Below are positions 11,966 to 63,738 of a stretch of DNA of 64,000 bases, one piece after another. This DNA comes from an uncultured bacterium. GTDB taxonomy: Bacteria; Caldisericota; JANLFM01. The first letter of the stretch is position 1. Every line of letters begins with the position of its first letter. A program made the position numbers and the translations under genes. The notes beneath the pieces were generated by a model. It saw only the letters and a list, made by a program, of their open reading frames with translations. It ran no database searches and was not told the origin of the DNA. The stretch covers positions 43,959 through 107,958 of the forward strand of contig CAZTNW010000002.1 of the NCBI GenBank assembly GCA_964614945.1, read 5' to 3'.

Positions 11966-12252
11966 GGAGGGATATGATGGAAGAGATAATCGATAAGTTG
12001 ATACAGGAGAGGGATTGCGGCAAAGTAATCTCCATCGTCCTCGAGAATCCTTATATCGAGAAGGGGGCTTTAGCGGAGCAAGCCTCCATGAAGATAGAAG
12101 CCCTGGAAGGCGTTCTCGAAAAACTCATAGAGGCGATGATCCTGCTGGAGCTGGCCAGCCAGGCTGATTCAAGCATGGAATCGCGCGTGCCCAAGAAGAT
12201 CTACCTCGTGAATCCGGAGATCGAAGAAAAAGCAAGGCAATCGCTTTCATGA
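11962..12252 (+). CDS. Small hypothetical protein, possible winged-helix
   Basis: Overlaps both neighbours by ATGA, consistent with translational coupling. The helix-helix-helix plus beta-hairpin pattern is inferred by eye. Confidence 0.6.
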   Translation: MRRDMMEEIIDKLIQERDCGKVISIVLENPYIEKGALAEQASMKIEALEGVLEKLIEAMILLELASQADSSMESRVPKKIYLVNPEIEEKARQSLS

Positions 12253-16371: not shown

Positions 16372-17189
16372 CGTAAGGTCAACCTCCCCTCAATGCGAGC
16401 CGCTTTTTCCATTTTGGCCAGGGACTTCCCCGCCAGGTAGAGGAAGATAGGACACAACCCAAGAACAATCAGGGATTCCACAAGAGGAGAGAGAAAACCG
16501 AGGGTGGGGTCTGCCGGCACGATCAGTTGTCTCATGGCATCCAGTCCCAGCGTCAGGGGAAGGATCGAGGCCGCTGCTGCCCCCCAGAAACCGAGGCTCT
16601 TCACCGGAAAATAGAAACCAGAGAAGAGGTAAATCGGCTCCTGCAGCATATTGGAAAGGTTCCAGGCTTCCCGTCCAGACATCAGGAAAAGCGACGCTAG
16701 AAGCATGCCCATACCATAGAGCGCAACCAGGGTAAGGAAGAAGACGAGGAGCACTAGCCAGAGGCTGGCTATCTCGTAAGTGACGTCGAAGATCAGGCTC
16801 CCCATGAGGATCACAGCCGTCGCGCGGATCGTAGTAGAGAAGAGACCACCGACGCCCATTCCCAGAAGAATAGCCATGGGAGAGACAGGGGCCATAATGT
16901 ACAGCTGTAGGTTCGCCGTCTCCTTCTCCCAGTAGAATTGGGAAGCCATGCTCCAGAGCATATTAAGCCAATAAGCGGTCATCGCCCCTCCCAGAACAAC
17001 GTAAGCCACGAAGTACGAAGGAGCCTGCATCGCCTTGTAGATATAGACGTAGGCTGCAAGGCCTATGAGGGGCAAGAGGCTCTCCGTCACTAGCCAAGAC
17101 AGCTCTCGGTTCGCCCCTACCACACGAGGATAGGCCCGGCCTATGATCGCCCGCACGAACAGCTCAATCGGGTTCGGAACTCGTTCCAT
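16362..17189 (-). CDS. ABC-2 type exporter permease
   Basis: Hydrophobic profile, FSGFYFPV, PLTLGLDAMR. Confidence 0.85.
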   Translation of the reverse strand: MERVPNPIELFVRAIIGRAYPRVVGANRELSWLVTESLLPLIGLAAYVYIYKAMQAPSYFVAYVVLGGAMTAYWLNMLWSMASQFYWEKETANLQLYIMAPVSPMAILLGMGVGGLFSTTIRATAVILMGSLIFDVTYEIASLWLVLLVFFLTLVALYGMGMLLASLFLMSGREAWNLSNMLQEPIYLFSGFYFPVKSLGFWGAAAASILPLTLGLDAMRQLIVPADPTLGFLSPLVESLIVLGLCPIFLYLAGKSLAKMEKAARIEGRLTLRWQ

Positions 17190-34632: not shown

Positions 34633-36915
34633 TCAGAATTTTGTCGCGCTTTCCTCCCTGCGTTTACGGAAGCCGCCGCGCTTTGAGTAAATGATGGAGG
34701 CAAAAATCACCAGCGCTCCCAGCACGATCGTCACGATTACCCCGGGATCGGAATTCTTGTACTGGATGAGAACCGGGGCCGCAAGGAGGGAGACCAGGTT
34801 GATCACCTTGATCATTGGGTTGAGCGCAGGTCCGGCAGTATCCTTGAGAGGGTCGCCGACGGTATCCCCTACCACTGAGGCTTTGTGGGGTTCGGAACCC
34901 TTACCTCCATAGAGACCATCCTCGATGGATTTCTTCGCATTGTCCCAGGCTCCTCCGGAATTTGCCATGAAGACGGCCAGAAGCTGTCCGGAGAGTATCA
35001 CACCGGCCAGAAATCCGCCCAGGGCTTCGACCTCAAGCAGCATGCCAATGACCAGGGGGGCAAGTACAGCAATTAGGGCCAGAGCGACCAGTTCCTTCTG
35101 CGCGGCGATGGTACAGATGTTAACAGCGCGGCCATAATCAGGACGAACTTTGCCCTCCATCAGGCCGGGGATACGGAATTGCCTTCTCACTTCATCCACA
35201 ATCAGGCAGGCCGCCCGCGCAACAGAGTTGATCGTCAAGGAGGAGAAAAGCCAAGGAATCGAGCCGCCAATTAACATACCGATAAAGACCCTCGGATCAG
35301 ATATGCGGATTCCAGTGTTGAGCAAGCGCAGGCTTTCCGCCAATCCCATCTGAGCCTGGACTTTTGTGATATCAGCCAGAAAAGAGCCGAAAAGGGAAAC
35401 CGCGGCAATCACGGCCGAGCCTATGGCCACCCCTTTCGTGATCGCTTTCGTCGTATTGCCCACGGCATCCATGTCGGCCAATATCTGGCGCGCCTCTGGC
35501 TCCATCCTGGTCATCTCTCCGATGCCGTTAGCGTTGTCTACGATCGGACCATAGGAATCCATGGCCACATTATTTCCGGTCAGGGTGAGCATCCCGATAC
35601 CGGTCATGGCCACCCCGTACAACACGAAGATCACGGGCTGCCCCCAGTAAATGATCACCGCGGCGAGGATGGTAAGGGCAATCACCACAATCTGCCAGAC
35701 GGAGGCCTCGAAACCAACCGCCAATCCTCGCAAAATCAGCGTGGCTGATCCTGTCCGGGAGGCTGAGGCGATATCCTTGACCGGCTTGTGATGGGTGTCG
35801 GTGAAATACTTCGTTATCTCATCAATCACAATGGCCAGCACGATGCCCACCCCGACGGAGAGAAACGCCCTCCACTCGTGCATATAGAAAACGGCTAGGA
35901 TAAGGAAAGAAACGATGGATATCCCGGCAGAGGTATAAAAGCCACGGTTAATCGAAGCCATGGCATTTCCGCGTTTTTCCTCTCTCCGCCCCCTCACGAG
36001 GTAAGTGCCGATGATAGAGGACAGGACTCCAATCCCGCGCACGAGCAGGGGGAAGACAATCCATTTCAATTCCTGGGTAATGGAGACGAGGGCAAGCCCA
36101 AGGATCAATCCGGAGACGATCGTGACCTCATAGGACTCGAAGATGTCTGCGGCCATTCCGGCGCAATCACCTACGTTGTCCCCAACCAGGTCTGCTACCA
36201 CTGCAGCATTGCGCGGGTCATCCTCAGGCACACCTGCTTCAACCTTCCCTACAAGGTCAGCCCCGACATCGGCCGCTTTGGTGTAAATCCCTCCACCCAC
36301 ACGCATGAATAGAGCGAGGAGTGTCCCGCCGAACCCGAAACCCAATAGGGCGTCGGGGGCGGCGATGCCAAAGATAATGAAGATGACCGTCCCTCCCAGC
36401 AGGCCGAGCCCGTCCGTAAGCATCCCGGTAATAGTGCCGGAGCGGTAAGCGATCTTGAGCGCTTCGGAAAAACTCCTGCGCGAGGCCGCCGCTACACGTA
36501 CGCTCCCCTGCACAGCCATCCGCATCCCGAACTGGCCAACGATGAGAGAGAAAAGAGCTCCCATAACGAAAGCTAAGGCCCTCCCCACTCCCACGATTAA
36601 TCGTACCTGATCAGGGGTGAAAGAGACAAACCGCTCGAGTGCCTCTTCGGTGGGGGGAACAACGTAGACGGAGAAAAAGAGCACCACCGTTAGAACGATT
36701 ATCAGAGGAAGTATGGTCTTGAGCTGCCTGCTTAAATAGGCATCAGCCCCCAGGCGGATGGCATCCCAGACCTCCTGCATTTTGGAGGTCCCTTTTTCCT
36801 TCCGCAAGATCTGCCTCCGAAGGAATAGGGCATAAGCCAACCCAAGAAAGGCGATAAAGAGAACGCTCCAGATGGCCACAATCTCAAAAGGGCTGGCATG
36901 AGTCAAACCTGCCAT
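34633..36915 (-). CDS. hppA: Membrane-bound H+-translocating pyrophosphatase, K+-independent type
   Basis: KAADVGADLVGKVE, DNVGDCAG, GNTTKA (Lys marks K+-independence), GDTVGDPLKDTAGP; likely ATG 36915. Confidence 0.94.
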   Translation of the reverse strand: MAGLTHASPFEIVAIWSVLFIAFLGLAYALFLRRQILRKEKGTSKMQEVWDAIRLGADAYLSRQLKTILPLIIVLTVVLFFSVYVVPPTEEALERFVSFTPDQVRLIVGVGRALAFVMGALFSLIVGQFGMRMAVQGSVRVAAASRRSFSEALKIAYRSGTITGMLTDGLGLLGGTVIFIIFGIAAPDALLGFGFGGTLLALFMRVGGGIYTKAADVGADLVGKVEAGVPEDDPRNAAVVADLVGDNVGDCAGMAADIFESYEVTIVSGLILGLALVSITQELKWIVFPLLVRGIGVLSSIIGTYLVRGRREEKRGNAMASINRGFYTSAGISIVSFLILAVFYMHEWRAFLSVGVGIVLAIVIDEITKYFTDTHHKPVKDIASASRTGSATLILRGLAVGFEASVWQIVVIALTILAAVIIYWGQPVIFVLYGVAMTGIGMLTLTGNNVAMDSYGPIVDNANGIGEMTRMEPEARQILADMDAVGNTTKAITKGVAIGSAVIAAVSLFGSFLADITKVQAQMGLAESLRLLNTGIRISDPRVFIGMLIGGSIPWLFSSLTINSVARAACLIVDEVRRQFRIPGLMEGKVRPDYGRAVNICTIAAQKELVALALIAVLAPLVIGMLLEVEALGGFLAGVILSGQLLAVFMANSGGAWDNAKKSIEDGLYGGKGSEPHKASVVGDTVGDPLKDTAGPALNPMIKVINLVSLLAAPVLIQYKNSDPGVIVTIVLGALVIFASIIYSKRGGFRKRREESATKF

Positions 36916-37102
36916 AATGATTTCATCCTTTCTTCCGAGTCTCGCACACAGAAGGTCAAGGGACATTCTACAAAAATTTGCCCCAGGAGTAAATGAAACC
37001 AGCTGGCGCACCAATTTGAGGAAAGGGTGGGATAGGAAGGGATTGAATATCGGGGGCTTTTTTTTGTTATGTTCTATGTAATACTGAGAGAGGCGGGAAC
37101 AA

Positions 37103-38266
37103 ATGAGACCATACATATATCTTGATAATTCGGCCTCCACACGTCTCGATGAGAGGGTGCTGGAAGCGATGAAGCCCTTCTTTTTCGAGAATTACGCAGT
37201 GGCGACATCGGAGTTCGCCTACTCACTGGGGGTCGAGGCGAAAGAAGCGCTGGAGGGAGCAAGGGAGAGGATTTCCCGACTGCTGGGGGCATCTCCGGGA
37301 GAATTCCTCTTCACCTCTGATCCTACGGAAGCGAACAATCTCGCCATCCAGGGAGTGGCCACTGCACTGGCGGAGCAAGGAAGAATGCACTTCATCACCT
37401 CCAAGATCGAGGACTTCTCCGTACTCAACACCTTCCGAGCTTTAGAAAAAAGAGGGGCTTCCGTAACCTACCTTGCTGTGGACGAGAGAGGATTTGTGGA
37501 CCTCGATTTGCTCCGCAGGTCCCTGCGGAAGGATACAGCGCTCATCTCCATCCAGCACGCGAACCAGGAAATCGGCACAGTGCAGGACCTGGCGAAGATC
37601 GCGCGCCTGGCGAAGGAGCATGGTCTGATTTTTCACTCAGACTGCGCCCACACCTTCATGCGGGCCCCTCTTGATGTGAGCGCGATCCCGGCCGACCTGT
37701 TGACAGTCTCCGCTCATACTCTGCACGGCCCCAGGGGAATCGCCGGCTTATATGTCCGTAAAGGCACCCCCATTCGCAAGATCCTCGAGGGGGGGTTTCA
37801 GGAGAATAACCTCAGACCCGGGATGGAAAATATACCCGGTGTGATGGGCTTCGCCCGAGCCCTGGAGTTGATCACCCCGGAGGAAAATGAGAGGCTCAGA
37901 GAGATGCGCGATCGTCTGATCGAAGGACTCCTGTCCTCTGTCCCGGACAGCATCCTCAACGGGGATCGGTGGAAGCGGATTCCGCAAAACGCAAATATCA
38001 CCTTCCGCTTCGTGGAGGGAGAGTCTCTCACCCTGCATCTGGACTTCAGGGGCATCGCCGTAAACACCGGCTCCGCCTGCTTCAGCAAGTCTCTGGAGGC
38101 AAGTCACGTGATCCTCGGGATCGGCGGTGACCACGAGAGGGCTCATGGTTCACTGCGTTACACCCTCTCACGCTTCAATACGATGGAGGAAATGGAGACG
38201 GTCATTCAGACCACAGCGGAAATCGTCTCCCGCTTGCGCAAGATCAGTCCCTTAGGAAAGGAGTGA
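37103..38266 (+). CDS. IscS/NifS-like cysteine desulfurase homolog lacking PLP-binding residues
   Basis: YLDNSAST, RPGMEN, GSAC (catalytic Cys) and SHV are kept, but SAHK reads SAHT, EH reads ED and DxxQ reads DCAH. Confidence 0.88.
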   Translation: MRPYIYLDNSASTRLDERVLEAMKPFFFENYAVATSEFAYSLGVEAKEALEGARERISRLLGASPGEFLFTSDPTEANNLAIQGVATALAEQGRMHFITSKIEDFSVLNTFRALEKRGASVTYLAVDERGFVDLDLLRRSLRKDTALISIQHANQEIGTVQDLAKIARLAKEHGLIFHSDCAHTFMRAPLDVSAIPADLLTVSAHTLHGPRGIAGLYVRKGTPIRKILEGGFQENNLRPGMENIPGVMGFARALELITPEENERLREMRDRLIEGLLSSVPDSILNGDRWKRIPQNANITFRFVEGESLTLHLDFRGIAVNTGSACFSKSLEASHVILGIGGDHERAHGSLRYTLSRFNTMEEMETVIQTTAEIVSRLRKISPLGKE

Positions 38267-53767: not shown

Positions 53768-54574
53768 TCAATGGGGTGGCGCGACTACCTCTCCCCAAAG
53801 GCAGATCCCTCGATCCGGGTTTGCCAGGTAGCGGAACCGCTCTGGCGCGCGGATAAAGCTGAGGTAGAGCGGAGTGCTCTTGACGATACCCATTTCCGGG
53901 AATTCCCTCGTTCCAAGGAATCGTAGCGGAGGAAGTTTAGCGTAGCGCGGATTCCTGAGGAAATTTTCCTCTCCGAGGAGGGCGTAATAAGCGGGCCCCT
54001 GTTCTTCAAAACGCCCGTATACGGATGTAAATAAGCTTTCCACCAGGTTGGATATCACCAAGATGTCCCCCGTCGTATTTATAGTTACATGCCCATAGCC
54101 AGGAGGGATCAGGACTTTCTCCCCCGGGCGGGCCTTTATGGCCACGACGTCTTCCACTATTCCTTCTCCGGCCGTTTTCTGCATGAGATAAATGGCCTCC
54201 CCTGCCAGCACTTCGTAGGCTTCCGGGTAGGTAAGGCCGAATGAGGAAGTAGGGGCCAGAGGGTGTTCGTGCCCGATCGTGCGCACAAATTCATCCCCCA
54301 CCTGTCCGGGAAAGATCACGGTGATATCAAAACGGAGTCCCAGTCTGCGAAAAAGCCCCTCATCCTCCCTCCTCATCACTCCCCGATATATATAATAGAG
54401 TTCCTTCGGAGAGGCGGCATCAGGATTAAGGAAAAAGGATCGAGCATCGACAAGCCGACGAACATCGGGGTGAGTCGGGGTCAAGCATTCCGGGAAAATC
54501 ATCTTCCGTGTCCTGCAATCGAATTTCAGAGACAAACCGGAAGGGGCAAGGTCAATTTCCTTTTTTATCCTCAT
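53768..54574 (-). CDS. Cupin-type (archaeal) glucose-6-phosphate isomerase family protein
   Basis: RFDITVI, GHEHP, YPEAYEVLAGE, IPPGYGHVTIN. Confidence 0.85.
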   Translation of the reverse strand: MRIKKEIDLAPSGLSLKFDCRTRKMIFPECLTPTHPDVRRLVDARSFFLNPDAASPKELYYIYRGVMRREDEGLFRRLGLRFDITVIFPGQVGDEFVRTIGHEHPLAPTSSFGLTYPEAYEVLAGEAIYLMQKTAGEGIVEDVVAIKARPGEKVLIPPGYGHVTINTTGDILVISNLVESLFTSVYGRFEEQGPAYYALLGEENFLRNPRYAKLPPLRFLGTREFPEMGIVKSTPLYLSFIRAPERFRYLANPDRGICLWGEVVAPPH

Positions 54575-54615: not shown

Positions 54616-56595
54616 TCAGGCTCGAGCGAAAGAAAACCCCAGTTTGAGCGGTCGGAAGCCTCCCTGCTGGTCTTGAACCTTCCAGAGAGGGAAGAGGGAA
54701 ATCCCCTGAATGATACGCTCAGATCCCTGCTCGGAGGAGGAGATAGTCTCCAAGGGAGCGAGGAAAAAAGCGGCTTCCGGGTCAAGGGTAACCTGGAGAA
54801 GAAATCCCTTATCAGGCCAGAAGAACTGCAGGGAGCTGAAGGTTTCCTTTTCAAAGTATGAGCTGTTCAGGGCCCACCTCTGACTTTCAGAGCGAAGCAT
54901 AAAATGCTCCGGATCGAAACCGCTCATTGAAGCGAGGTTGATTTCCACCGCACACCAGAGGTTCATCGAAGTCGGCCCGAGATTTTCCAGGAAGAGCTCC
55001 ATGCTTAAGCTGCCATCGGCCTTAGCCTGGAAAGTTTTAGTCGCACACACCAGGGTCTCTTTTCCTCCGGAGCTCACCCTGCCCTCCCTGGCGAAGGAGA
55101 GATTTACCCGGGAGGCGATTCTTTCCTTGATCTTCGGCAAGTAGGGACCAATAAAGTCGCCCCTTTGCGCCAGATCCTCTGGAAGAGGCTCCCGGGCGAA
55201 AAGATGAAGGAGAAAGGAATAAGGCGGTGAGGGATCTAGCGGGAGAGGTTCCCCCCGAAGTTTAACATCGGAAGGTGACAGCTCTTGGTAAGGCGACAAA
55301 GTAGCGGAGAAATTGAAGTTTAAGGGCTTGTAATCCCATTCGAAGAGAGAGCCTCCTATCCTCGGGGAAAAATAGAGGTTGGCCAAGGGGCCCTCGCAGA
55401 GAATCTCTTTCTCCCCGTCACAATTGAAATCGTACTCCTTGAGGAGGATCCCGGATTGGCCCCTTTCCTCGTCCGCTCTTTTCTCTGCCTCGATCAAGTG
55501 CTCGTAAATGCCGAACCTGAGGTGGGGAAGGAATAGCCCGCCGAATAACCCATGCCAGTAGGCGCAATTACACTGTCCGAGGAACAGCTCGCGCTTCAGC
55601 TCGCGCGAAGGATTCAAGCACGAGGCTACCTTCTCGCTCACGTAAAGCATTTTCTTGTGCATATTGTTCGCCTCCTCGAAGCGGGCCAGGAAATTTCGCC
55701 ACAGCCCGCAGGGAGAAGCTCTCCCGGCTGCCGCCCTCTCTCCGGGAGAAAAAGATGACCATTCCATCATCTCCGGATAGGAAGCGGAGGGCAGATAAAC
55801 TCTCCCGGCAGGAGGCAACAGGTCCCGTGCCTGTGACAATGTCCGGGTCTCGATCCAGGAGGAGTTTTCGAGCAGCAGATCGAAGAAATGAGAGAGCCAT
55901 CCTTTTTCATAACATAGTTCGTAGGTGGAGGGCCAGAGGCCGAACTTCTCGCCGTCGTCCCCCATCACCTTGAGCCAATGCTCATCCTGCCATGCTCGCC
56001 GCAGGAAACTGATGGTTTCCTCTGCAGCCTGAAACGGTATCAGATAGCGCAGTTCCCTGTCGATGGGAAAGAGGGAGAGAATCTCTCCCTCCTCTTCCGT
56101 GAGCCAGTAACTCCGCAGCTGCTCCAATTTTATCCCGGTCAGGAGAAAGTGGTGATCGTCAAGCAGGGTGAATTCCAATCCAGCCCGGCGGATGACTTTG
56201 GGCAGATGAGGTTCCCAGATTCTTTCCGCGAGCCAGAGGCCGTTCGGCTTTATACCTAAGGCCCTCTGCAGGAACTCATTCATCTCCCCAATCTGGCCCA
56301 GAGCGTCTCGCTCGGGAATCGCAGGCAGAATCGGCTCCCCCATCCCTCCAGAGAGAACCTCCACCTGCCCTCGGTCGATCATGGCTCTGAGGCGGTGAAA
56401 AAACTCTTTGTGCCTGCGCTCCAGCTCTAAAAGAAGGCAGCCGGAGTAATGGAGGTTGACTCTGATCTGAGGATAGCGCTCCAGTATATCCAAAAATGGC
56501 TTGTAGGCGCGTTGATAGGCCTCCTCAATCACCCAACCGAGATTTCCCACCGGTTGGTGATTGTGGATCACAAGAAGAAAGAAAATAGGATTCAC
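54616..56595 (-). CDS. GH57 alpha-amylase / 4-alpha-glucanotransferase
   Basis: HNHQP, WLAERIWEP (nucleophile Glu), DDGEKFG (acid/base Asp), QCNCAYWHG; GTG 56595 overlaps the upstream TGA. Confidence 0.9.
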   Translation of the reverse strand: MNPIFFLLVIHNHQPVGNLGWVIEEAYQRAYKPFLDILERYPQIRVNLHYSGCLLLELERRHKEFFHRLRAMIDRGQVEVLSGGMGEPILPAIPERDALGQIGEMNEFLQRALGIKPNGLWLAERIWEPHLPKVIRRAGLEFTLLDDHHFLLTGIKLEQLRSYWLTEEEGEILSLFPIDRELRYLIPFQAAEETISFLRRAWQDEHWLKVMGDDGEKFGLWPSTYELCYEKGWLSHFFDLLLENSSWIETRTLSQARDLLPPAGRVYLPSASYPEMMEWSSFSPGERAAAGRASPCGLWRNFLARFEEANNMHKKMLYVSEKVASCLNPSRELKRELFLGQCNCAYWHGLFGGLFLPHLRFGIYEHLIEAEKRADEERGQSGILLKEYDFNCDGEKEILCEGPLANLYFSPRIGGSLFEWDYKPLNFNFSATLSPYQELSPSDVKLRGEPLPLDPSPPYSFLLHLFAREPLPEDLAQRGDFIGPYLPKIKERIASRVNLSFAREGRVSSGGKETLVCATKTFQAKADGSLSMELFLENLGPTSMNLWCAVEINLASMSGFDPEHFMLRSESQRWALNSSYFEKETFSSLQFFWPDKGFLLQVTLDPEAAFFLAPLETISSSEQGSERIIQGISLFPLWKVQDQQGGFRPLKLGFSFARA

Positions 56596-59027
56596 CCCTG
56601 TTTTTTCAAGAACCGGGCCGCCTCCTCCGGCGGCGTGGGATTGATGTAGAAATCGGTGCCCCACTCAAAGCCGGCGGGGGTAGTCAGGCGAGGGATGATC
56701 TCAATATGCCAGTGGTATTCGGGCCAGAAAAGGAGGCCCAGAGGGCTGGAGTGAATCATCATGTTATATGGAGGGTCATTGACCACTTCCTTGAGCCGGC
56801 CGAGGGTGAACAACAAAACCTGCGCCAGGGACTCGACCTCCCCGTTATCCAGCTCAGAGAAGGCTGCCTGGTGGCGTTTCGGCAGAATCAGGGTCTCGAA
56901 GGGGAAGCGGGAGGCGTAGGGTTCGAAGACGATGAAATCAGCGGAATCGTAGACCAGCCTTTTGCCTTGAGCCAGCTCCTCCTGGATCGAATCACAGAAG
57001 ATACATTGTCCCGTGTGTTCCCAGTAGGTGTGCGCGGAATCCAGCTCTTCCTTGATGCGGCGCGGGACGATGGGGGTGGCAATCAACTGGGAGTGTGGAT
57101 GAGAGAGAGAAGCGCCGGCTGACCTACCGTAATTACGAAAGATAAGTATATAGCGTAGATCTTTGTTTTTTGACAGCTCGCGGTAGCGATGGCGGTAGGC
57201 CGCGCACACCAGCTCCATTTGCTCCAGGGATAAATCAGCCATCGCCAGGTCGTGCCGGGGCGTTTCTACTATTACCTCATGCGCTCCCAATCCAGAAATG
57301 CTCGTATAAAGGTGGGAGTGAACATATGCCGGTTCTTCTTCTTTGATCAGCGCCGGAAATTTGTTATCGAAGACTCGCACGGACCAGCCCGGTTCATTGG
57401 CCCGAGTACCCGCTTTACGAATGGCAAAGAGCTCGTAGGGGGTCATGCCCTCGTGCTGTTCGCAGAAAGGACAGTTAGCTGTGTCGTTCGTGACATGCTG
57501 ATCGGCCGGCACTTTGAAATCACTTGGGCGTTTGGTGCGTCCCTTGGCGATGATTGACCATTCCTCAAGAATCGGGTCTTTGCGGATTTCTGGAGAAATG
57601 ATGGCCCCTTTCCTCTTTCCGTGGAAGAAGAGGGCCTTTCGATAGACCTTCTCGTAGCTGGGAAGGGCGGAACTCCAGGAGTGGTCCTCTGACATCCCCG
57701 TCCGCCTGATTTGGTCCCAATGGGTATGGAGGGCATAGTGCTCCAGGGCTTCCTCCAGAGAAGTTAGGAAGGCTCCGGCCTCATACTGATTGAACAGAAA
57801 TCCGTTCCCCTCCCCGGTTTCCGGGTTATAGGGAGAGACTGTATCCGTCAGGCCTCCCGTCTTCCGCACAACTGGGACGGTTCCATAGCGGAGGGCGATC
57901 AACTGTCCCAGGCCGCAGGGCTCGAAACGCGATGGCATGAGAAAGATATCCGCTCCGGCGTAAATTTGCTTCGCCAGCTCCTCGTCGAAAGTTAAACGAA
58001 GAGTGAACTTCTGGGGGAAACGAGAGCTGAGGTCTCGCAAATATTCCTCGTAACGTCGCTCACCGGTGCCGAGGATTACGAGCTGAAGTGGTTTCGCCAG
58101 CAGCCGGTCCATGATCGGGGGAAAAAGGTCGAGCCCCTTCTGTTCCGTAAGCCTGGAAATCATGGCCAGCAGAGGGGCATCCCGATCAAGCGGCAATCCC
58201 AGCTTCCCTTGTAGTTCTGTCTTTATCTCCGGTTTGCGACTGCGCAGGTTGGACAGGCTCAACCCGAAAGATGCGGGATCGTATTCCTCAATATCGATCC
58301 CATTCGTGATCCCCATAAGCTGTTTTTTTCTCAAGGCCAGCGCCCCCTCAAGCCCCATCCCTAATGCCGGTGTCTGGATCTCACGCCCATAGGTATCGCT
58401 GACGGTGGTGATGAAATCGCTGGTGAGAATTGCCCCCTTGAGAAGGTTAGCCTTGCCGTAGAATTCAATCCTCTCGTCGCGGAAGGAAAGGGGCAAACCG
58501 ATTCGGGAGAACATCTCCTGTTCCACCAATCCCTGGAAGGCAAGGTTGTGGATTGTTAGCACACAGGCCAGCGAGGAGAATTCGACCTTCCCGGCGAGAA
58601 TGGTCTCCAGATAAAGGGGAACCGGGCTGGTGTGCCAATCGTGGATATGCAGGATTTCCGGAAATCCGAGCAGGGGAAGGGATTCTAAGGCTGAGCGAGA
58701 GAAGAAGGCGAATCGTTCGACATCGTCGGGGCAGCCGTAAATTATGTCACGGTCAAAATAACGGGGGTTCTCTAAAAAGAAAAAATCAATGCCGTGAAGC
58801 ACCTCTCGGCGGATCGTGAGGGGCTCAATCCGTCCTTGCCATGCTATCTCGACCTCCCCTACTTTCTCCCGCTGTTCGAGATCAGGGATAGAGCGGTACG
58901 CTGGCAGGAAAACGTTAACAAGGTGTCCCTTTTTCGCCAGGACTTTGGAGAGGGATCCCGCGACATCGCCTAATCCCCCGACTTTAGCAAAGGGAGAGGC
59001 TTCAGCAGCAATTAACGAGATTTTCAT
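56592..59027 (-). CDS. glgA: Glycogen synthase fused to a C-terminal GalT-family (HIT-related) nucleotidyltransferase
   Basis: N-terminal KVGGLGDV, HIHDWHT, PSRFEPCGL. From ~57599: RKDPILEEW, CPFC, NKFPAL, GAHEVIVE, NYGRSAGASLSHPHSQ, WHIEIIPR. Single 811-aa frame. Confidence 0.92.
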   Translation of the reverse strand: MKISLIAAEASPFAKVGGLGDVAGSLSKVLAKKGHLVNVFLPAYRSIPDLEQREKVGEVEIAWQGRIEPLTIRREVLHGIDFFFLENPRYFDRDIIYGCPDDVERFAFFSRSALESLPLLGFPEILHIHDWHTSPVPLYLETILAGKVEFSSLACVLTIHNLAFQGLVEQEMFSRIGLPLSFRDERIEFYGKANLLKGAILTSDFITTVSDTYGREIQTPALGMGLEGALALRKKQLMGITNGIDIEEYDPASFGLSLSNLRSRKPEIKTELQGKLGLPLDRDAPLLAMISRLTEQKGLDLFPPIMDRLLAKPLQLVILGTGERRYEEYLRDLSSRFPQKFTLRLTFDEELAKQIYAGADIFLMPSRFEPCGLGQLIALRYGTVPVVRKTGGLTDTVSPYNPETGEGNGFLFNQYEAGAFLTSLEEALEHYALHTHWDQIRRTGMSEDHSWSSALPSYEKVYRKALFFHGKRKGAIISPEIRKDPILEEWSIIAKGRTKRPSDFKVPADQHVTNDTANCPFCEQHEGMTPYELFAIRKAGTRANEPGWSVRVFDNKFPALIKEEEPAYVHSHLYTSISGLGAHEVIVETPRHDLAMADLSLEQMELVCAAYRHRYRELSKNKDLRYILIFRNYGRSAGASLSHPHSQLIATPIVPRRIKEELDSAHTYWEHTGQCIFCDSIQEELAQGKRLVYDSADFIVFEPYASRFPFETLILPKRHQAAFSELDNGEVESLAQVLLFTLGRLKEVVNDPPYNMMIHSSPLGLLFWPEYHWHIEIIPRLTTPAGFEWGTDFYINPTPPEEAARFLKKQG

Positions 59028-59036
59028 GGTTGTTTG

Positions 59037-59065
59037 ATCTTAGGTAAAGGAGGGGGAGCTGTCAA
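59037..59065 (-). promoter_or_regulatory. Sigma70 promoter of the glgA-galT operon, near-leaderless
   Basis: On the minus strand TTGACA-17 nt-TAAGAT, then 9 nt to ATG with no Shine-Dalgarno. Confidence 0.7.
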
Positions 59066-61239: not shown

Positions 61240-63738
61240 ATGAAAGCAGTAGTAATGGCCGGCGGGTTCGGTACCCGTTTACGGCCCTTAACCCTCCACA
61301 TTCCGAAACCAATGGTCCCGATCGTGAATCGTCCGGTGATGGAGCATGTGATCGAGTTGCTCAAAACCAACGGATTTAAAGACTTGATCGTGCTCCTCTA
61401 TTTTCAGCCCGAGGCGATCGAGGGTTATTTTCAAAGCGGAGAAAAATGGGGGGTTAAGATTCAATATATCCGCCCGGAAATGGACTTCGGCACGGCAGGG
61501 AGCGTAAGGCTTGCCCGGGACCTCCTCGATGAGACCTTCCTCGTTATCTCGGCAGACGTACTCACAGATTTCAGCCTGCAATCGGCCCTGGGATTTCACG
61601 AGGAGAACAAATCGCTGGCAACGCTCCTCCTCACTCGAGTAAAGGATCCCCGCTCATACGGAATCGTCGTTACGGAAGGGAATGGCAAAATCCTCTCCTT
61701 CCTGGAGAAACCGACCTGGGGGGAGATCTTTTCCGATACGGTAAACAGTGGCATCTACGTACTCCAACCTGAGGTTCTCGATCGCGTTCCGCGAGATCGC
61801 GAGTTCGACTTCTCCAAAGGGCTTTTTCCTGCCCTACTTGAGGAGGGAGCTCCTCTTTTCGGTACTGTAATCTCGGGCTACTGGAGGGATATCGGTAATT
61901 TAGAGGATTACTGGCAGGCCCACCTCGATGTGCTCCACGGCGAGGTGAATCTAAAAGTGGCAGGAAAGAGGATAGAGAAAGTGGGAACGGATGTCTGGGT
62001 GACTGAGGGAGTGGAAATTCATCCCCGCGCCCGCCTGCGCGGGACGGTGATTTTAAGTGAGGGAACAGAGGTAGAGGAAAACGCTTCCCTCTATAACTCC
62101 ATCGTCGGTCGCGGGGGTAAGATCGAGGAGGAGGCCCAGATCGAGGAGTCCGTCCTCTGGGACCAGGTCGTAGTGGGAAGACGCAGCCGACTGAGGCAGT
62201 CTGTCATCGGCTCTCGCTCGAAAATAGGCTCCCTCGTCAATGTACAGGAAAAGGTGGTGATCGCTGAGGATTGCCAGATCGGGAGCGGTGCCATAATTAC
62301 GAGTGGAGCGAGAATCTGGCCGCAAAAAGAAGTGGAGGGCGGTGCTACCGTCACGAGCTCCTTAGTTTGGGGCGAGAGATGGGGAAAAAGCCTCTTTGGC
62401 AACTACGGCATAACCGGGTTGGCAAACTCCGAGATCGTGCCGGAGTTCGCCGCCAAAGTGGGGGCGGCTTACGGGACGATCCTCAAGCGAGGAAACAGCA
62501 TTCTCTCATCCTACGACGGCCACAGGGCTTCCCGGGTCATCCATCGCTCTCTGATGGCAGGCCTTTTATCCGCCGGGATCAACAACTATGATTTAGGGCG
62601 CGCGGCTGTCCCTGTCGCCCGCCATGCCATCCGTTCCTTAGAGGCTGAAGGAGGAGTGCATGCCGCCATCTCGCCCTTCAATCCCTCCGTAATCGATATT
62701 AAATTTTTTGACAGCGTCGGGCTGGATCTCTCCCCCGCCAGGGAGAGGGCGATCGAAGGTGCTTATTTCCGGGAGGAATTCAGCCGTGCGTCGACCGCGG
62801 ATGTGGGCGGTATTTCTTTCCCGGCAAGGGTACTGGAGTATTACGAGGAAGCCTTCCTCCATGCCCTCGAGCTTGCTGCGATTGAGAGAGCGGGATTCCG
62901 CATCGTCGTAGACTACGGCTTCGGCACCGCCTCCACAGTTCTACCCAGTATTTTCGGCAAGACTGGGATCGAAGTCGTAGCCCTCAACGCCTACTTGGAT
63001 GAAAAAAAGATCACCAAGAGCGAGGAGGAATACAGGCGCTCTCTGGAGACCCTGGCGGAAATCGTCCTCTCCCTGAAATGCCATGCGGGTTTCCTGCTCG
63101 ACGCCGGTTCGGAAAAGATTTTCCTGGTGGATGAAAAGGGGCGGGTGCTGGACGGGGATTTGAGCCTGGCCTGCGTCTCCTTTCTGGTGTTCCGGCGCTA
63201 TTCTCGAGCGAGCATCGCCGTCCCCGTCTCCGCCTCGTCAATCCAGGAAGAGATGAGCAGGAATTTTGAGGGTCGCGTGTTCTACACCAAGACATCCACC
63301 CGCTCAATGATGGAAATGGCCAGAAGCAAAGAGGTTCAGTTCGTGGGGGAGGTCAAGGGCGGCTATATCTTCCCTCAATTTCAGCCCTTTGCCGACGGTA
63401 TGTTCGCCCTCGTCAAAATCCTGGAAATGCTCGCCTTAGCAAAAAACAGTCTGGGGGAGATCTCCGCGCTGATTCAGCCGAAGGCGATGGTTAAGGAACA
63501 CTTTCCCTGCCCCTGGGAGATGAAGGGCACGGTCATGCGCCGACTGATCGAGGAGAGCAAGGACCTGGACACTCTTTTAATCGACGGGATCAAAATCTTT
63601 TTCGATTCAGGTTGGGTATTCATCCTGCCGGACAAAGACAGGCCGCTTCTGCACATTAACGCCGAGGCAGGAAAGGAGAGCGAGGCCCGCAGGCTGCTTC
63701 AGCTCTATTCAGAAAAAATTTCCCGCTGGTTAGGCTAA
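61240..63738 (+). CDS. Mannose-1-phosphate guanylyltransferase-like nucleotidyltransferase + LbH + phosphomannomutase-like fusion
   Basis: MAGGFGTRLRPLT..PKP, FLEKP, YWRDIG, hexapeptide repeats, then a PGM/PMM four-domain region ending RPSxxE-like LPDKDRP. Confidence 0.9.
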   Translation: MKAVVMAGGFGTRLRPLTLHIPKPMVPIVNRPVMEHVIELLKTNGFKDLIVLLYFQPEAIEGYFQSGEKWGVKIQYIRPEMDFGTAGSVRLARDLLDETFLVISADVLTDFSLQSALGFHEENKSLATLLLTRVKDPRSYGIVVTEGNGKILSFLEKPTWGEIFSDTVNSGIYVLQPEVLDRVPRDREFDFSKGLFPALLEEGAPLFGTVISGYWRDIGNLEDYWQAHLDVLHGEVNLKVAGKRIEKVGTDVWVTEGVEIHPRARLRGTVILSEGTEVEENASLYNSIVGRGGKIEEEAQIEESVLWDQVVVGRRSRLRQSVIGSRSKIGSLVNVQEKVVIAEDCQIGSGAIITSGARIWPQKEVEGGATVTSSLVWGERWGKSLFGNYGITGLANSEIVPEFAAKVGAAYGTILKRGNSILSSYDGHRASRVIHRSLMAGLLSAGINNYDLGRAAVPVARHAIRSLEAEGGVHAAISPFNPSVIDIKFFDSVGLDLSPARERAIEGAYFREEFSRASTADVGGISFPARVLEYYEEAFLHALELAAIERAGFRIVVDYGFGTASTVLPSIFGKTGIEVVALNAYLDEKKITKSEEEYRRSLETLAEIVLSLKCHAGFLLDAGSEKIFLVDEKGRVLDGDLSLACVSFLVFRRYSRASIAVPVSASSIQEEMSRNFEGRVFYTKTSTRSMMEMARSKEVQFVGEVKGGYIFPQFQPFADGMFALVKILEMLALAKNSLGEISALIQPKAMVKEHFPCPWEMKGTVMRRLIEESKDLDTLLIDGIKIFFDSGWVFILPDKDRPLLHINAEAGKESEARRLLQLYSEKISRWLG

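What the first reader, a model, noticed from the sequence alone, without database searches (positions are those of the whole stretch)
56592..59027. Glycogen synthase-GalT fusion: possible built-in sugar-nucleotide supply or control
Seen: one 811-aa frame joining an intact GlgA (KVGG) to an intact GalT-family domain (CPFC zinc site, HPHSQ nucleophile), in an operon with GH57 and cupin PGI; no glgC in the window. Established: GalT-family enzymes transfer NMP between hexose-1-phosphates, and a plant GalT-like protein is an ADP-glucose phosphorylase. Inference: the domain may make, interconvert or dissipate the NDP-glucose donor next to the synthase, which would be a GlgC-independent or futile-cycle-regulated route to glycogen.
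Basis: partly seen in the sequence, partly recalled or inferred. Interest (0 to 1): 0.68.

Follow-up and report, generated by a model that had tools for sequence, protein, structure and literature searches.

The report
Glycogen synthase fused to ADP-glucose phosphorylase
An uncultured sludge bacterium joins its glycogen-building enzyme to an enzyme that most likely interconverts the sugar donor ADP-glucose and glucose-1-phosphate; the same two genes sit side by side in many bacterial phyla, pointing to an unrecognised step in bacterial glycogen metabolism that databases label as galactose metabolism.

Summary
ORF 56592-59027 (-) encodes one 811-aa protein: an intact GT5 glycogen synthase (residues 1-466), a 12-residue linker, and an intact GalT-family double-HIT domain (479-811). 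Independent assemblies span the junction.

The HIT half is not a Leloir GalT. By sequence, fold and signature residues it sits closest to Arabidopsis At5g18200, the only characterised ADP-glucose phosphorylase.

Free-standing homologues (~335 aa, auto-named "GalT") have GlgA as their commonest neighbour: 30 of 80 loci, and 17 of 26 non-acidobacterial taxon labels. GH57 enzymes and sugar-1-P nucleotidyltransferases also recur. galK and galE do not. The two domains have fused at least twice, in both orders.

"No glgC" holds only in name. An NTP-transferase-PGM fusion 2.2 kb away belongs to the same conserved glycogen locus.

Best reading (inferred, not assayed): the two active sites exchange ADP-glucose and ADP, so that Glc-1-P + glucan(n) <-> glucan(n+1) + Pi. 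Direction and nucleotide preference are untested. The main rival is an ADP-glucose relief valve or pyrophosphate-generating cycle. I found no prior report of this linkage. It is a new variant of known enzyme kinds and can be tested directly.

The parts
56592..59027 (-). Whole fusion gene, 811 aa plus stop: GT5 glycogen synthase fused to a GalT-family (ADP-glucose-phosphorylase-like) double-HIT domain
   Evidence: ORF; Pfam and NCBIfam; colinear homologues; junction present in independent assemblies
57630..59027 (-). GlgA domain, residues 1-466. Motifs present: KVGGL (res 15-19), HDWH (129-132), SRLTEQKG (291-298), SRFEPCGLGQ (366-375)
   Evidence: TIGR02095 scores 497.9 bits over residues 1-464. 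PDB best hits are starch and glycogen synthases, 250-271 bits. Foldseek matches E. coli glycogen synthase 3COP with TM 0.91 and rmsd 2.1 A. The motifs are invariant in the fusion family.
57594..57629 (-). Short linker of about 12 residues (HGKRKGAIIS...) between the last GlgA helix and the conserved PEIRKDP start of the HIT domain
   Evidence: AF2 pLDDT dips to 80-88 here, with a helix at 451-472 followed by a strand at 480.
56595..57593 (-). GalT-family double-HIT domain, residues 479-811. Zn site C519/C522/H592/H643; nucleophile motif S-H643-P-H645-S-Q647; second metal site C675/C678/H719/H772
   Evidence: PDB best hit is At5g18200 (1Z84) at 250.6 bits over the full length, against 165 for PaGalT and 94 for E. 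coli GalT. Foldseek gives TM 0.90 and rmsd 2.7 A to 1Z84/2H39. Signature residues; residue mapping.
54616..56595 (-). GH57 enzyme of the 4-alpha-glucanotransferase/alpha-amylase (AmyA) type, 659 aa. Its GTG start overlaps the fusion's stop codon (GTGA), so the two genes are translationally coupled.
   Evidence: Pfam Glyco_hydro_57 + AmyA-A_glucT_m + AmyA-gluTrfs_C; gene call and overlap; 38% identical to the GH57-AmyA gene next to the HIT gene in L007
53768..54574 (-). Cupin-type glucose-6-phosphate isomerase, 268 aa, the last gene of the operon
   Evidence: Pfam PF06560 GPI, E 1.2e-31; same strand, 41 nt after the GH57 stop
59037..59065 (-). Promoter-like site (TTGACA, 17 nt, TAAGAT) ending 10 nt before the ATG. 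A consensus match only.
   Evidence: The number of such sites in the region equals the shuffle expectation, so this is weak evidence.
61240..63738 (+). Divergently transcribed 832-aa sugar-1-P nucleotidyltransferase (NTP_transferase + LbH) fused to PGM/PMM. It is the likely G6P -> G1P -> NDP-glucose supply module of the same glycogen locus.
   Evidence: Pfam and NCBIfam. 66% identical homologue in the same position in the Caldiserica relative. 44-45% identical full-length homologues lie between the GH57 branching enzyme and GlgA in L005 and L007. Nearest PDB relatives are LbH-type UGPase and GMPP; E. coli GlgC scores only 53 bits.

Best explanation
The gene encodes a bifunctional enzyme: a glycogen (alpha-1,4-glucan) synthase joined to an NDP-glucose phosphorylase, most likely specific for ADP-glucose.

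Proposed chemistry:
1. The HIT half works by a ping-pong mechanism through a covalent His645-AMP intermediate: ADP-glucose + Pi <-> ADP + Glc-1-P.
2. The GlgA half catalyses ADP-glucose + glucan(n) <-> ADP + glucan(n+1).
3. The two reactions share both nucleotide species. Fused, or encoded side by side, they form a closed loop in which ADP acts as a catalytic carrier.
4. The net reaction is Glc-1-P + glucan(n) <-> glucan(n+1) + Pi. That is the same overall reaction as a GT35 glycogen phosphorylase, reached by a different route and without ATP.

Direction should follow the Pi/Glc-1-P ratio. At ordinary cellular ratios it would favour phosphorolysis of stored glucan to Glc-1-P. At low Pi or high Glc-1-P it would favour ATP-free synthesis. 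The neighbouring NTP-transferase-PGM enzyme would supply the ATP- or NTP-driven route for unconditional synthesis. The co-transcribed GH57 glucanotransferase would remodel chain ends, and the cupin PGI (with the PGM domain) would connect Glc-1-P to glycolysis.

Shown: both domains are present and have intact active sites; the HIT domain's affinity to the ADP-glucose phosphorylase; the conserved genomic coupling.
Inferred: the nucleotide and substrate identity, the ADP loop, channelling between the sites, and the direction.
For: 1. Both halves are intact. The catalytic motifs are invariant across the nine-member alignment of the fusion and its closer homologues (P0002-P0009).

2. The HIT half is nearest to the only characterised ADP-glucose phosphorylase.
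- Bit scores are 250 against At5g18200, 165 against PaGalT and 94 against E. coli GalT.
- Foldseek gives TM 0.90 at 2.7 A, against 0.81 at 4.9 A for E. coli GalT.
- At5g18200 groups with the bacterial clade in the NJ tree.
- Of 81 columns at least 90% conserved in the bacterial clade, At5g18200 shares 61, PaGalT 46 and EcGalT 39. Exclusive sharing is 18, 3 and 3.
- At5g18200 is documented as ADPG + Pi -> ADP + G1P with Km(ADPG) about 7 uM (PMC4136846; PMC6329318).

3. The GlgA half matches the ADP-glucose-type model TIGR02095.

4. Rosetta-stone evidence: GlgA->HIT fusions occur in several lineages (P0001-P0009; the divergent P0241, P0242, P0244, P0307). A HIT->GlgA fusion occurs in Phosphitispora (P0010).

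5. Neighbourhood evidence.
- GlgA is the most frequent neighbour of free-standing homologues: 30 of 80 loci, 24 immediately adjacent, 29 of the 30 on the same strand, with gaps from slightly overlapping to about 100 nt for most adjacent pairs.
- Outside Acidobacteriota it is linked in 29 of 49 loci and 17 of 26 taxon labels.
- Other recurrent neighbours are alpha-glucan genes.
- No GT35 phosphorylase was identified in any flank or in the window, although not every flanking ORF was annotated.

6. Thermodynamic consistency, from values recalled from memory and not checked here.
- Keq is about 5-40 towards ADP + G1P for At5g18200 (McCoy 2006 abstract).
- It is several tens towards the glucan for E. 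coli glycogen synthase.
- The product is close to the known phosphorylase equilibrium, [Pi]/[G1P] of about 3-4.
Against: - No biochemistry exists for any bacterial member of this clade.
- Global identity to At5g18200 is only 38%. PaGalT, a genuine UDP-Glc:Gal-1-P transferase, is 37% identical over the core.
- The bacterial clade keeps E661 and H774, as both true GalTs do, whereas At5g18200 lacks them.
- A pyrophosphorylase-type enzyme accompanies the pair in this locus and in 17 of 80 loci. The HIT enzyme is therefore not simply a GlgC substitute, and during pyrophosphorylase-driven synthesis it would compete with GlgA for ADP-glucose.
- The nearby nucleotidyltransferase resembles UGPase and GMPP more than GlgC, so the nucleotide could be UDP or GDP rather than ADP.
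- In Acidobacteriota the HIT gene is not linked to GlgA (1 of 31 loci).
- AF2 pTM of 0.67 gives no firm inter-domain geometry, and the expected HIT dimer was not modelled.
- The presence or absence of GlgC and GT35 across the whole genome could not be checked.
Confidence: 0.5

Rival explanations
1. ADP-glucose relief valve or pyrophosphate-generating cycle. The HIT domain only consumes ADP-glucose made by the locus's pyrophosphorylase. Together the two reactions give ATP + Glc-1-P -> ADP-Glc + PPi followed by ADP-Glc + Pi -> ADP + Glc-1-P, a net ATP + Pi -> ADP + PPi. Attached to GlgA, the domain partitions the donor between storage and recycling according to Pi. It acts as a Pi-sensitive brake on glycogen synthesis and possibly as a PPi source.
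For: - Phosphorolysis is the favoured and characterised direction of At5g18200 (PMC4136846).
- A nucleotidyltransferase is part of this locus and of many related loci.
- The window encodes a membrane H+-pyrophosphatase, so PPi is an energy currency in this organism.
- The same net stoichiometry has been proposed for glycogen cycling in PPi-dependent anaerobes (PMC8863071).
Against: - A valve on the pyrophosphorylase product would be expected to fuse or pair with the pyrophosphorylase. Instead the conserved partner, and the fusion partner in both orders, is GlgA.
- Many GlgA-linked loci show no nucleotidyltransferase within about 6 kb.
- In C. thermocellum, glycogen cycling proved not to be a major PPi source (PMC8863071).
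Confidence: 0.25
2. ATP-dependent ADP-glucose synthase by covalent catalysis. The HIT domain takes AMP from ATP (E-His + ATP -> E-His-AMP + PPi) and passes it to Glc-1-P. That would make it a GlgC analogue feeding the fused synthase, the first reader's 'GlgC-independent supply'.
For: - GalT-family and Ap4A-phosphorylase-type HIT enzymes transfer NMP between phosphate acceptors.
- At5g18200 is reported to transfer AMP from ADP-glucose to 'various phosphates' (recalled from the McCoy 2006 abstract, not checked here).
- Fusion to the consumer of ADP-glucose would fit a supply role.
Against: - Phosphate, not pyrophosphate, is the best acceptor of the characterised relative.
- A separate pyrophosphorylase module is conserved in the locus, which makes a second ATP-driven supplier redundant.
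- Nothing in the sequence argues for ATP binding.
Confidence: 0.08
3. An ordinary Leloir UDP-glucose:galactose-1-phosphate uridylyltransferase that happens to be fused to GlgA, as current annotation says.
For: - TIGR00209 (galT_1) scores 118 bits against a cut-off of 102.
- PaGalT, a true GalT, is the second-nearest structure.
- NCBI names relatives 'galactose-1-phosphate uridylyltransferase'.
Against: - The equivalog model NF008724 scores 154 bits against a cut-off of 448.
- No GHMP-kinase or epimerase family recurs among neighbours in 80 loci.
- The conserved partners are glycogen genes.
- Classical GalTs are the most distant relatives by sequence, fold and signature positions.
- The C-terminal hexose-binding segment KFMVGYEML of E. 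coli GalT is replaced by AGFEWGT.
Confidence: 0.05
4. The HIT domain is a non-catalytic, nucleotide-sugar-sensing regulatory or oligomerisation module of the synthase.
For: - Class I GalT-family proteins are obligate dimers (bioRxiv 10.64898/2026.09.13.751320), so the domain would dimerise GlgA.
- One fusion lineage has a degenerate first zinc site.
Against: - The nucleophile motif HxHxQ and nearly all active-site positions are invariant in every fusion lineage, including the divergent one.
- Free-standing homologues are equally conserved.
Confidence: 0.04

Closest known systems
Arabidopsis thaliana At5g18200 ADP-glucose phosphorylase (EC 2.7.7.36; PDB 1Z84, 1ZWJ, 2H39)
   Same: Same double-HIT GalT-like fold. 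CxxC/His zinc site and S-H-x-H-S-Q nucleophile motif are present. It is the best PDB match by sequence (250 bits, full length) and by fold (TM 0.90). It shares 61 of 81 clade-conserved positions, 18 of them exclusively.
   Different: - Only 38% identical overall.
- The plant enzyme is free-standing and cytosolic, with no known partner.
- The bacterial clade keeps two metal-site residues (E661, H774) that the plant protein lacks.
- Here the domain is covalently joined to a glycogen synthase.
Bacterial GT5 glycogen synthase GlgA (E. coli GS, PDB 2QZS/3COP; A. tumefaciens GS 1RZU)
   Same: Full-length GT-B fold (TM 0.91) with all catalytic motifs. It passes the ADP-glucose-type model TIGR02095.
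   Different: - Carries a 345-residue C-terminal extension (a 12-residue linker plus the 333-residue HIT domain) with a second active site.
- It falls below every GlgA 'equivalog' cut-off of NCBIfam (496 bits against 603 for the best one).
- It sits in a GH57-type locus rather than a glgBXCAP-type locus.
Class I Leloir GalT (E. coli GalT 1HXP/1HXQ, human GALT)
   Same: Same superfamily, same ping-pong chemistry through a histidine-NMP intermediate, same HxHxQ motif and zinc site.
   Different: - Only 26% identical.
- It is the most distant of the characterised relatives.
- The hexose-binding C-terminal segment differs.
- No galK, galE or galM context.
Pyrobaculum aerophilum GalT (PDB 6K5Z)
   Same: Second-nearest solved relative (165 bits) and 37% identical over the core. 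It shares SLTHPHSQ and the second CxxC.
   Different: It is described as a true GalT in the deposited entry names and in bioRxiv 10.64898/2026.09.13.751320. The aligned part of the deposited chain starts at residue 39 and does not cover the PELRKDP...RPxDF N-terminal segment that At5g18200 and the bacterial clade share; from memory, the original paper describes PaGalT as lacking that N-terminal region. It falls outside the bacterial + At5g18200 group in the tree. The fold match is poorer (rmsd 7-9 A).
GT35 glycogen/maltodextrin phosphorylase (GlgP/MalP)
   Same: Its reaction, glucan(n) + Pi <-> glucan(n-1) + Glc-1-P, is the net reaction proposed for the fusion. In classical operons glgP sits next to glgA, as the HIT gene does here.
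   Different: Unrelated in mechanism: a single PLP-dependent active site with no nucleotide carrier. No GT35 gene was identified in the window or in the annotated part of the 80 loci.
Other fused alpha-glucan pathway enzymes (TreS-Mak/Pep2; GlgB-MalQ of Neisseria)
   Same: They set a precedent for fusing consecutive alpha-glucan pathway steps, which has been read as evidence of flux direction and coupling (Chem Rev 2024, PMC11046441).
   Different: Different enzymes. That review, in the part held, mentions no GalT-like enzyme and no ADP-glucose phosphorylase.

Membership tests
GT5 glycogen/starch synthase, ADP-glucose type | GT-B architecture: starch-synthase catalytic domain (PF08323) followed by a GT1 domain (PF00534) | tested here: met
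   Pfam residues 2-230 and 280-439; Foldseek TM 0.91 to E. coli GS
GT5 glycogen/starch synthase, ADP-glucose type | N-terminal K-x-G-G-L motif, plus the conserved HDWH, SRLxxQKG and SRFEPCGLxQ segments | tested here: met
   KVGG verified at 58974-58985. All motifs are invariant in the fusion family.
GT5 glycogen/starch synthase, ADP-glucose type | Scores above the curated family cut-off | tested here: met
   TIGR02095 scores 497.9 against a cut-off of 328.45. All narrower 'equivalog' GlgA models fall below their cut-offs.
GT5 glycogen/starch synthase, ADP-glucose type | Uses ADP-glucose as donor to extend alpha-1,4-glucan | not testable with these tools
   Needs an enzyme assay
ADP-glucose phosphorylase (At5g18200 type, EC 2.7.7.36) | GalT-like double-HIT fold with an H-x-H-x-Q nucleophile motif and a CxxC/His zinc site | tested here: met
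   Pfam PF01087 + PF02744; SHPHSQ and CPFC verified; residue mapping; TM 0.90 to 1Z84/2H39
ADP-glucose phosphorylase (At5g18200 type, EC 2.7.7.36) | Closer to the characterised phosphorylase than to characterised uridylyltransferases | tested here: met
   Bit scores 250, 165 and 94; tree; rmsd 2.7 A against 4.9-9 A; 61, 46 and 39 of 81 conserved positions shared
ADP-glucose phosphorylase (At5g18200 type, EC 2.7.7.36) | Catalyses ADP-glucose + Pi -> ADP + Glc-1-P and lacks GalT activity | not testable with these tools
   Needs an enzyme assay. No bacterial member has been characterised in the libraries searched.
Leloir class I GalT (EC 2.7.7.12) | Scores above the curated cut-offs of the GalT models | tested here: inconclusive
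   TIGR00209 scores 118.3 against 102.1 (passes). NF008724 scores 154 against 448 (fails).
Leloir class I GalT (EC 2.7.7.12) | Genomic association with galK, galE or galM | tested here: not met
   No GHMP-kinase or epimerase family recurs in the 80 loci. Neighbour clusters; aggregated Pfam of 128 further neighbours. None in the window operon.
Leloir class I GalT (EC 2.7.7.12) | C-terminal hexose-binding segment K-F-x-V-G-Y-E (E. coli residues 311-317; the role of these residues is recalled from memory) | tested here: not met
   Aligned segment reads AGFEWGT in the fusion and GGFEIGT in At5g18200. The E. coli reference sequence was validated as 348/348 identical to 1HXQ.
GlgC ADP-glucose pyrophosphorylase (for the neighbouring 832-aa protein) | NTP_transferase domain followed by a left-handed beta-helix | tested here: met
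   PF00483 at residues 2-232, LbH at 252-354
GlgC ADP-glucose pyrophosphorylase (for the neighbouring 832-aa protein) | Scores above the GlgC equivalog cut-off, or is nearest to solved GlgC structures | tested here: not met
   TIGR02091 scores 126 against 424.9. E. coli GlgC scores 53 bits, against 211 for an LbH-type UGPase.

The most novel reading that the evidence does not exclude
A widespread, unrecognised bacterial route links glucose-1-phosphate and glycogen through ADP-glucose without ATP and without a GT35 phosphorylase. An ADP-glucose phosphorylase is paired with, or fused to, GlgA and uses ADP as a recycled catalytic carrier. It would run towards synthesis when Pi is scarce and towards phosphorolysis when Pi is plentiful. 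If so, the many genes in many phyla now annotated as 'galactose-1-phosphate uridylyltransferase' are core glycogen-metabolism genes.
Probability: 0.35. Interest if true: 0.85.

Novelty: new variant of a known kind. Interest (0 to 1): 0.7.

Why it matters
Bacterial glycogen metabolism is taught as GlgC-GlgA-GlgB for synthesis and GlgP-GlgX for breakdown, or as the GlgE route. A 2024 comprehensive review of prokaryotic alpha-glucan enzymes contains no GalT-like or ADP-glucose-phosphorylase step in the part held.

The data here show a HIT-family enzyme that is genetically tied to GlgA in at least 17 taxon labels. These include cultivable Moorella, Fervidobacterium and Phosphitispora. The two genes have fused at least twice.

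If the enzyme is an ADP-glucose phosphorylase, four things follow:
- It reassigns a large gene family now labelled as Leloir GalT, which affects metabolic reconstructions of many uncultured anaerobes.
- It offers a physiological role for an enzyme class whose function has been unclear even in plants.
- It suggests an energy-saving or Pi-responsive way of filling and emptying glycogen stores in energy-limited anaerobes.
- It provides a natural two-site enzyme for making alpha-glucans from Glc-1-P with only catalytic nucleotide, which is of biotechnological interest.

All of this can be tested directly with one recombinant protein.

Tried and rejected
- The primary paper on At5g18200 (McCoy 2006; PMID 16519510, PMC2532824) is not held. 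Its kinetic and equilibrium values are therefore cited from memory, or through PMC4136846.
- Literature searches found nothing relevant. They covered a GlgA-GalT fusion, TM0895/TM0896, ADP-glucose + histidine triad + glycogen, and synonyms of ADP-glucose phosphorylase in bacteria. My memory that Thermotoga maritima has glgA next to a galT-like gene could not be checked directly. A Fervidobacterium locus does show that arrangement (L020).
- The 835-aa ORF at 34633-37140 was suspected to be a GT35 phosphorylase. It is an H+-pyrophosphatase.
- tblastn of GH57 branching enzyme, the second GH57 type, DUF4912, NTP_transf_4 and GlgC-like representatives against the window found no further glycogen genes.
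- Rfam found no RNA family in the window.
- The GC dip at 20-22 kb holds only small ORFs.
- The promoter and terminator scan gave no more sites than the shuffles did.
- Metatranscriptome runs gave only three 151-nt contigs at depth 2 in the 5' part of the gene. That is too little to show expression or co-transcription.
- My first neighbourhood census lost 17 anchor genes to longer antisense ORFs. It was redone with the anchors forced in.
- P0243 and P0273 looked like new HIT fusions but are tandem HIT-HIT duplications.
- The AF2 monomer (pTM 0.67) gives no reliable inter-domain geometry, so no channel or tunnel claim is made.
- Whole-genome presence or absence of GlgC and GT35 could not be tested with the available tools.

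Full report
THE OBSERVATION

The minus-strand ORF 56592-59027 is real and encodes 811 residues.

- Pfam places a starch-synthase catalytic domain at residues 2-230 and a GT1 domain at 280-439. The two halves of the GalT family lie at 476-655 and 662-776.
- NCBIfam's ADP-glucose-type glycogen/starch synthase model scores 498 bits against a cut-off of 328.
- The junction reads through without a stop...YRKALFFHGKRKGAIISPEIRKDP....

The fusion is not an assembly error.

- The junction is held at 100% of sampled words in six sludge or bioreactor runs from three studies.
- A 1304-nt contig of one run spans it without a difference.
- Eight other 90%-identity clusters at 47-83% identity are colinear, with a linker of about 12 residues and invariant catalytic motifs in both halves.

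The closest named relative is a Caldiserica MAG (63% identity). It keeps the same neighbourhood.

THE OPERON AND ITS SURROUNDINGS

- The next gene is a GH57 enzyme with the 4-alpha-glucanotransferase/alpha-amylase architecture. It starts at a GTG overlapping the fusion's TGA (GTGA), so the two are translationally coupled.
- A cupin-type glucose-6-phosphate isomerase follows 41 nt later.
- Upstream and divergent lie a GT2 glycosyltransferase, PlsY, and an 832-aa protein made of an NTP_transferase domain, a left-handed beta-helix and a PGM/PMM module.

- It is 66% identical to the protein in the same position in the Caldiserica relative.
- It is 44-45% identical, end to end, to ~800-aa proteins in the candidate division WOR-1 locus L005 and the uncultured-bacterium locus L007.
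- In those two loci the protein sits inside the operon GH57 - GH57(AmyA) - HIT - DUF4912 - GH57 branching enzyme - NTP-transferase/PGM - GlgA.

So the locus does have a G6P -> G1P -> NDP-glucose module. It is simply not a canonical GlgC.

- TIGR02091 scores 126 against a cut-off of 425.
- The nearest solved relatives are an LbH-type UGPase and GMPP enzymes; E. coli GlgC scores only 53 bits.
- Its nucleotide preference cannot be read from sequence.

No other glycogen gene and no GT35 phosphorylase was found in the parts of the 64-kb window examined: a tblastn scan with alpha-glucan gene representatives plus Pfam scans of 17 of the larger ORFs. The one ORF of the right size is an H+-pyrophosphatase.

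WHAT THE GALT-LIKE HALF IS

Against all solved structures, the domain's best match is Arabidopsis At5g18200.

| Reference | Bit score | Foldseek |
|---|---|---|
| At5g18200 (1Z84/2H39) | 250.6, full length | TM 0.90, 2.7 A |
| Pyrobaculum GalT (6K5Z) | 165 | TM 0.80-0.82, 7-9 A |
| E. coli GalT | ~94 | TM 0.81, 4.9 A |
| Human GALT | ~94 | TM 0.81-0.83, 4.7-6.1 A |

At5g18200 is the plant protein shown to be an ADP-glucose phosphorylase rather than a GalT. It carries out ADPG + Pi -> ADP + G1P, EC 2.7.7.36, with a Km for ADPG of about 7 uM (PMC6329318; PMC4136846).

An AlphaFold model of the fusion (pLDDT 90.9, pTM 0.67) gives the fold matches in the table. Its N-half matches E. coli glycogen synthase at TM 0.91. 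No PDB entry covers both halves.

In a distance tree, At5g18200 groups with the bacterial clade. PaGalT lies just outside and E. coli GalT far outside.

At the 81 alignment columns that are at least 90% conserved in the bacterial clade and present in all three references:

- At5g18200 has the clade's residue at 61.
- PaGalT has it at 46.
- E. coli GalT has it at 39.
- Eighteen positions are shared only with At5g18200, against three each for the two true GalTs.

Caveats:

- Overall identity to At5g18200 is only 38%.
- The bacterial clade keeps two metal-site residues that the plant enzyme lacks.
- No bacterial member has been characterised in the literature I could search.

The assignment as an NDP-glucose phosphorylase, probably specific for ADP-glucose, is therefore a well-supported inference and not a demonstrated fact.

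COMPARATIVE GENOMICS

This is the strongest evidence for functional coupling.

Free-standing homologues of about 335 aa and about 50% identity are abundant in many phyla. All are auto-named GalT. A scan of one genome per GTDB species with a profile of the domain returned 80 loci.

Clustering all ORFs within 4 kb showed which families recur:

| Neighbour family | Loci (of 80) |
|---|---|
| GT5 GlgA | 30, of which 24 immediately adjacent |
| GH57, first type | 8 |
| GH57, AmyA type | 8 |
| NTP_transferase+LbH proteins | 8 |
| NTP_transf_4 proteins | 7 |
| GH57 branching enzyme | 4 |
| DUF4912 | 3 |
| UDPGP | 2 |

- GlgA is the single most frequent neighbour. It lies on the same strand in 29 of the 30 loci, and for most adjacent pairs the gap runs from slightly overlapping to about 100 nt.
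- Outside Acidobacteriota, GlgA is linked in 29 of 49 loci and 17 of 26 taxon labels. These include Zixibacteria 6/6, Ignavibacteria, WOR-3, Nitrospirota, Nitrospinota, Verrucomicrobiota, Planctomycetota, Moorella and Fervidobacterium.
- In Acidobacteriota it is linked in 1 of 31 loci.
- The remaining large clusters are an acidobacterial synteny block of housekeeping genes.
- No GHMP kinase (GalK) or epimerase (GalE) family recurs, either in the clusters or in an aggregated Pfam scan of 128 further close neighbours.

An exhaustive HMMER search of 1.84 billion representatives found only a handful of fusion lineages:

- the window's group;
- a more divergent GlgA->HIT group (P0241, P0242, P0244, P0307), in which the first CxxC zinc site is degenerate but the HxHxQ nucleophile motif is kept;
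- in the complete genome of Phosphitispora sp. TUW77, a fusion in the opposite order, with HIT at residues 1-330 and GlgA at 352-830.

Fusion in both orders, together with widespread operonic adjacency, is classical Rosetta-stone evidence that the two proteins work on the same metabolites. The only metabolites they plausibly share are the nucleotide sugar and its nucleoside diphosphate.

MECHANISM

I commit to the following.

- The HIT half catalyses ADP-glucose + Pi <-> ADP + Glc-1-P through a His645-AMP intermediate.
- The GlgA half catalyses ADP-glucose + glucan(n) <-> ADP + glucan(n+1).
- Joined, they form a loop in which ADP is a recycled carrier.
- The net reaction is Glc-1-P + glucan(n) <-> glucan(n+1) + Pi.

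The numbers behind the thermodynamics are recalled from memory and were not verified here.

- Keq is about 5-40 towards ADP + G1P for At5g18200.
- It is several tens towards the polymer for E. coli glycogen synthase.
- Their combination is consistent with the textbook phosphorylase equilibrium, [Pi]/[G1P] of about 3-4.

At ordinary cellular Pi/G1P ratios the loop would therefore run towards phosphorolysis, a GT35-independent way of mobilising glycogen. That fits three observations: the very low Km of the characterised phosphorylase for ADP-glucose, the co-transcribed disproportionating GH57 enzyme and PGI, and the absence of any GT35 gene identified in these loci.

At low Pi or high G1P the loop would run towards ATP-free synthesis. 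In either direction the intermediate would be at micromolar or lower concentration, which gives a rationale for fusion.

The NTP-transferase-PGM enzyme would provide nucleotide-triphosphate-driven synthesis.

Steps shown: domain identity, intact active sites, genomic coupling. Steps inferred: nucleotide identity, the loop, channelling, direction. Confidence is about 0.5.

RIVALS

- Relief valve or PPi cycle (0.25). The HIT domain only drains ADP-glucose made by the pyrophosphorylase. It acts as a Pi-sensitive brake, or with the pyrophosphorylase as an ATP + Pi -> ADP + PPi cycle. The same stoichiometry has been proposed for glycogen cycling in PPi-dependent anaerobes (PMC8863071), and the window's H+-pyrophosphatase shows a PPi economy. 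Against it, the conserved partner, and the fusion partner, is GlgA and not the pyrophosphorylase.
- ATP-dependent GlgC analogue working by covalent catalysis (0.08).
- Ordinary Leloir GalT (0.05). This is contradicted by gene context and by every similarity measure.
- Non-catalytic regulatory or dimerisation module (0.04). This is contradicted by the invariant catalytic residues.

NOVELTY AND VERDICT

Both domains belong to known families, and the plant ADP-glucose phosphorylase is known. What I could not find reported anywhere in the held literature is:

- the fusion itself;
- the broad GlgA-HIT gene pairing;
- the implication that this large 'GalT' clade belongs to glycogen metabolism.

The searches included a 2024 comprehensive review of prokaryotic alpha-glucan enzymes. 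Annotators currently name the fusion after whichever half they notice: 'galactose-1-phosphate uridylyltransferase', 'glycogen synthase GlgA' or 'starch synthase'.

I rate this a new variant of a known kind, with interest 0.7. Its interpretation is partly supported: the donor-handling idea holds, but the 'GlgC-independent' premise does not.

Noticed in passing
window 61240-63738 (+): 832-aa three-part fusion: sugar-1-P nucleotidyltransferase + left-handed beta-helix + PGM/PMM. Full-length homologues (44-66% identity) occur in the Caldiserica relative and inside the glycogen operons of the WOR-1 locus L005 and the uncultured-bacterium locus L007. Nearest solved relatives are LbH-type UGPase and GMPP, not GlgC. 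It is probably the G6P->G1P->NDP-glucose supply enzyme of GH57-type glycogen loci.
   Followed up: partly
window 34633-37140 (-): 835-aa membrane H+-translocating pyrophosphatase (PF03030, 821 bits). The organism therefore uses PPi as an energy currency, which bears on the PPi-cycle rival.
   Followed up: partly
window 53768-54574 (-): Cupin-type phosphoglucose isomerase (PF06560), a type known mainly from Euryarchaeota (from memory). Here it is 268 aa and is the last gene of the glycogen operon of a bacterium.
   Followed up: no
window 59037-59065 (-): Promoter-like TTGACA-17-TAAGAT whose -10 element ends only 10 nt before the fusion's ATG, with no obvious Shine-Dalgarno sequence. The transcript may be leaderless or nearly so. 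This is a consensus match only.
   Followed up: no
L003 (Phosphitispora sp. TUW77, CP156677.1) 9968-12505 and 14948-16435: The reverse-order fusion (HIT then GlgA, 834 aa) has a second, free-standing GT5 GlgA 2.4 kb downstream. This suggests that the fused synthase may be a specialised paralogue.
   Followed up: partly
P0241, P0242, P0244, P0307 (no loci fetched): A divergent lineage of GlgA->HIT fusions. The first zinc site is degenerate (CxxC becomes CxxE, CxxD or DxxA, and H592 becomes G in two of them). The HxHxQ motif and the second Cys/His site are intact.
   Followed up: partly
L029 7965-10048, L033 996-3032; proteins P0273, P0243: Tandem duplications of the HIT gene. In two database proteins there are HIT-HIT fusions of 599 and 871 aa.
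   Followed up: partly
L006, L010, L028, L050, L061, L078 (downstream of GlgA): A conserved protein of about 630 aa follows GlgA in six loci: four Zixibacteria (L006, L010, L061, L078) and two Ignavibacteria (L028, L050). It has only weak TPR hits. In two loci it is followed by dockerin-containing proteins. Function unknown.
   Followed up: partly
L010, L006, L023, L031, L050, L061, L078 (immediately upstream of the HIT gene): A protein of about 420 aa from the little-studied NTP_transf_4 family (PF13562, 'sugar nucleotidyl transferase') lies directly upstream of HIT-GlgA in seven loci. It is a candidate non-canonical NDP-glucose pyrophosphorylase.
   Followed up: no
Acidobacteriota loci (e.g. 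L015, L036, L045, L056, L080): In 30 of 31 acidobacterial loci the HIT gene is not next to GlgA. It sits in a fixed block with a class-III aminotransferase, CysRS, a methyltransferase and UPF0102. Its partner, if any, is elsewhere in those genomes.
   Followed up: partly
alignment of HIT domains (window residues 661 and 774): The bacterial clade keeps E661 and H774. These align with second-metal ligands of E. coli GalT and are also present in PaGalT, but At5g18200 has R and F there. The bacterial enzymes may bind a second metal that the plant enzyme lost.
   Followed up: no
window 27262-28995 (-): Aldehyde:ferredoxin oxidoreductase (AFOR_N + AFOR_C), consistent with a strictly anaerobic lifestyle. 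The runs that hold the sequence are anaerobic sludge and bioreactor metagenomes.
   Followed up: no
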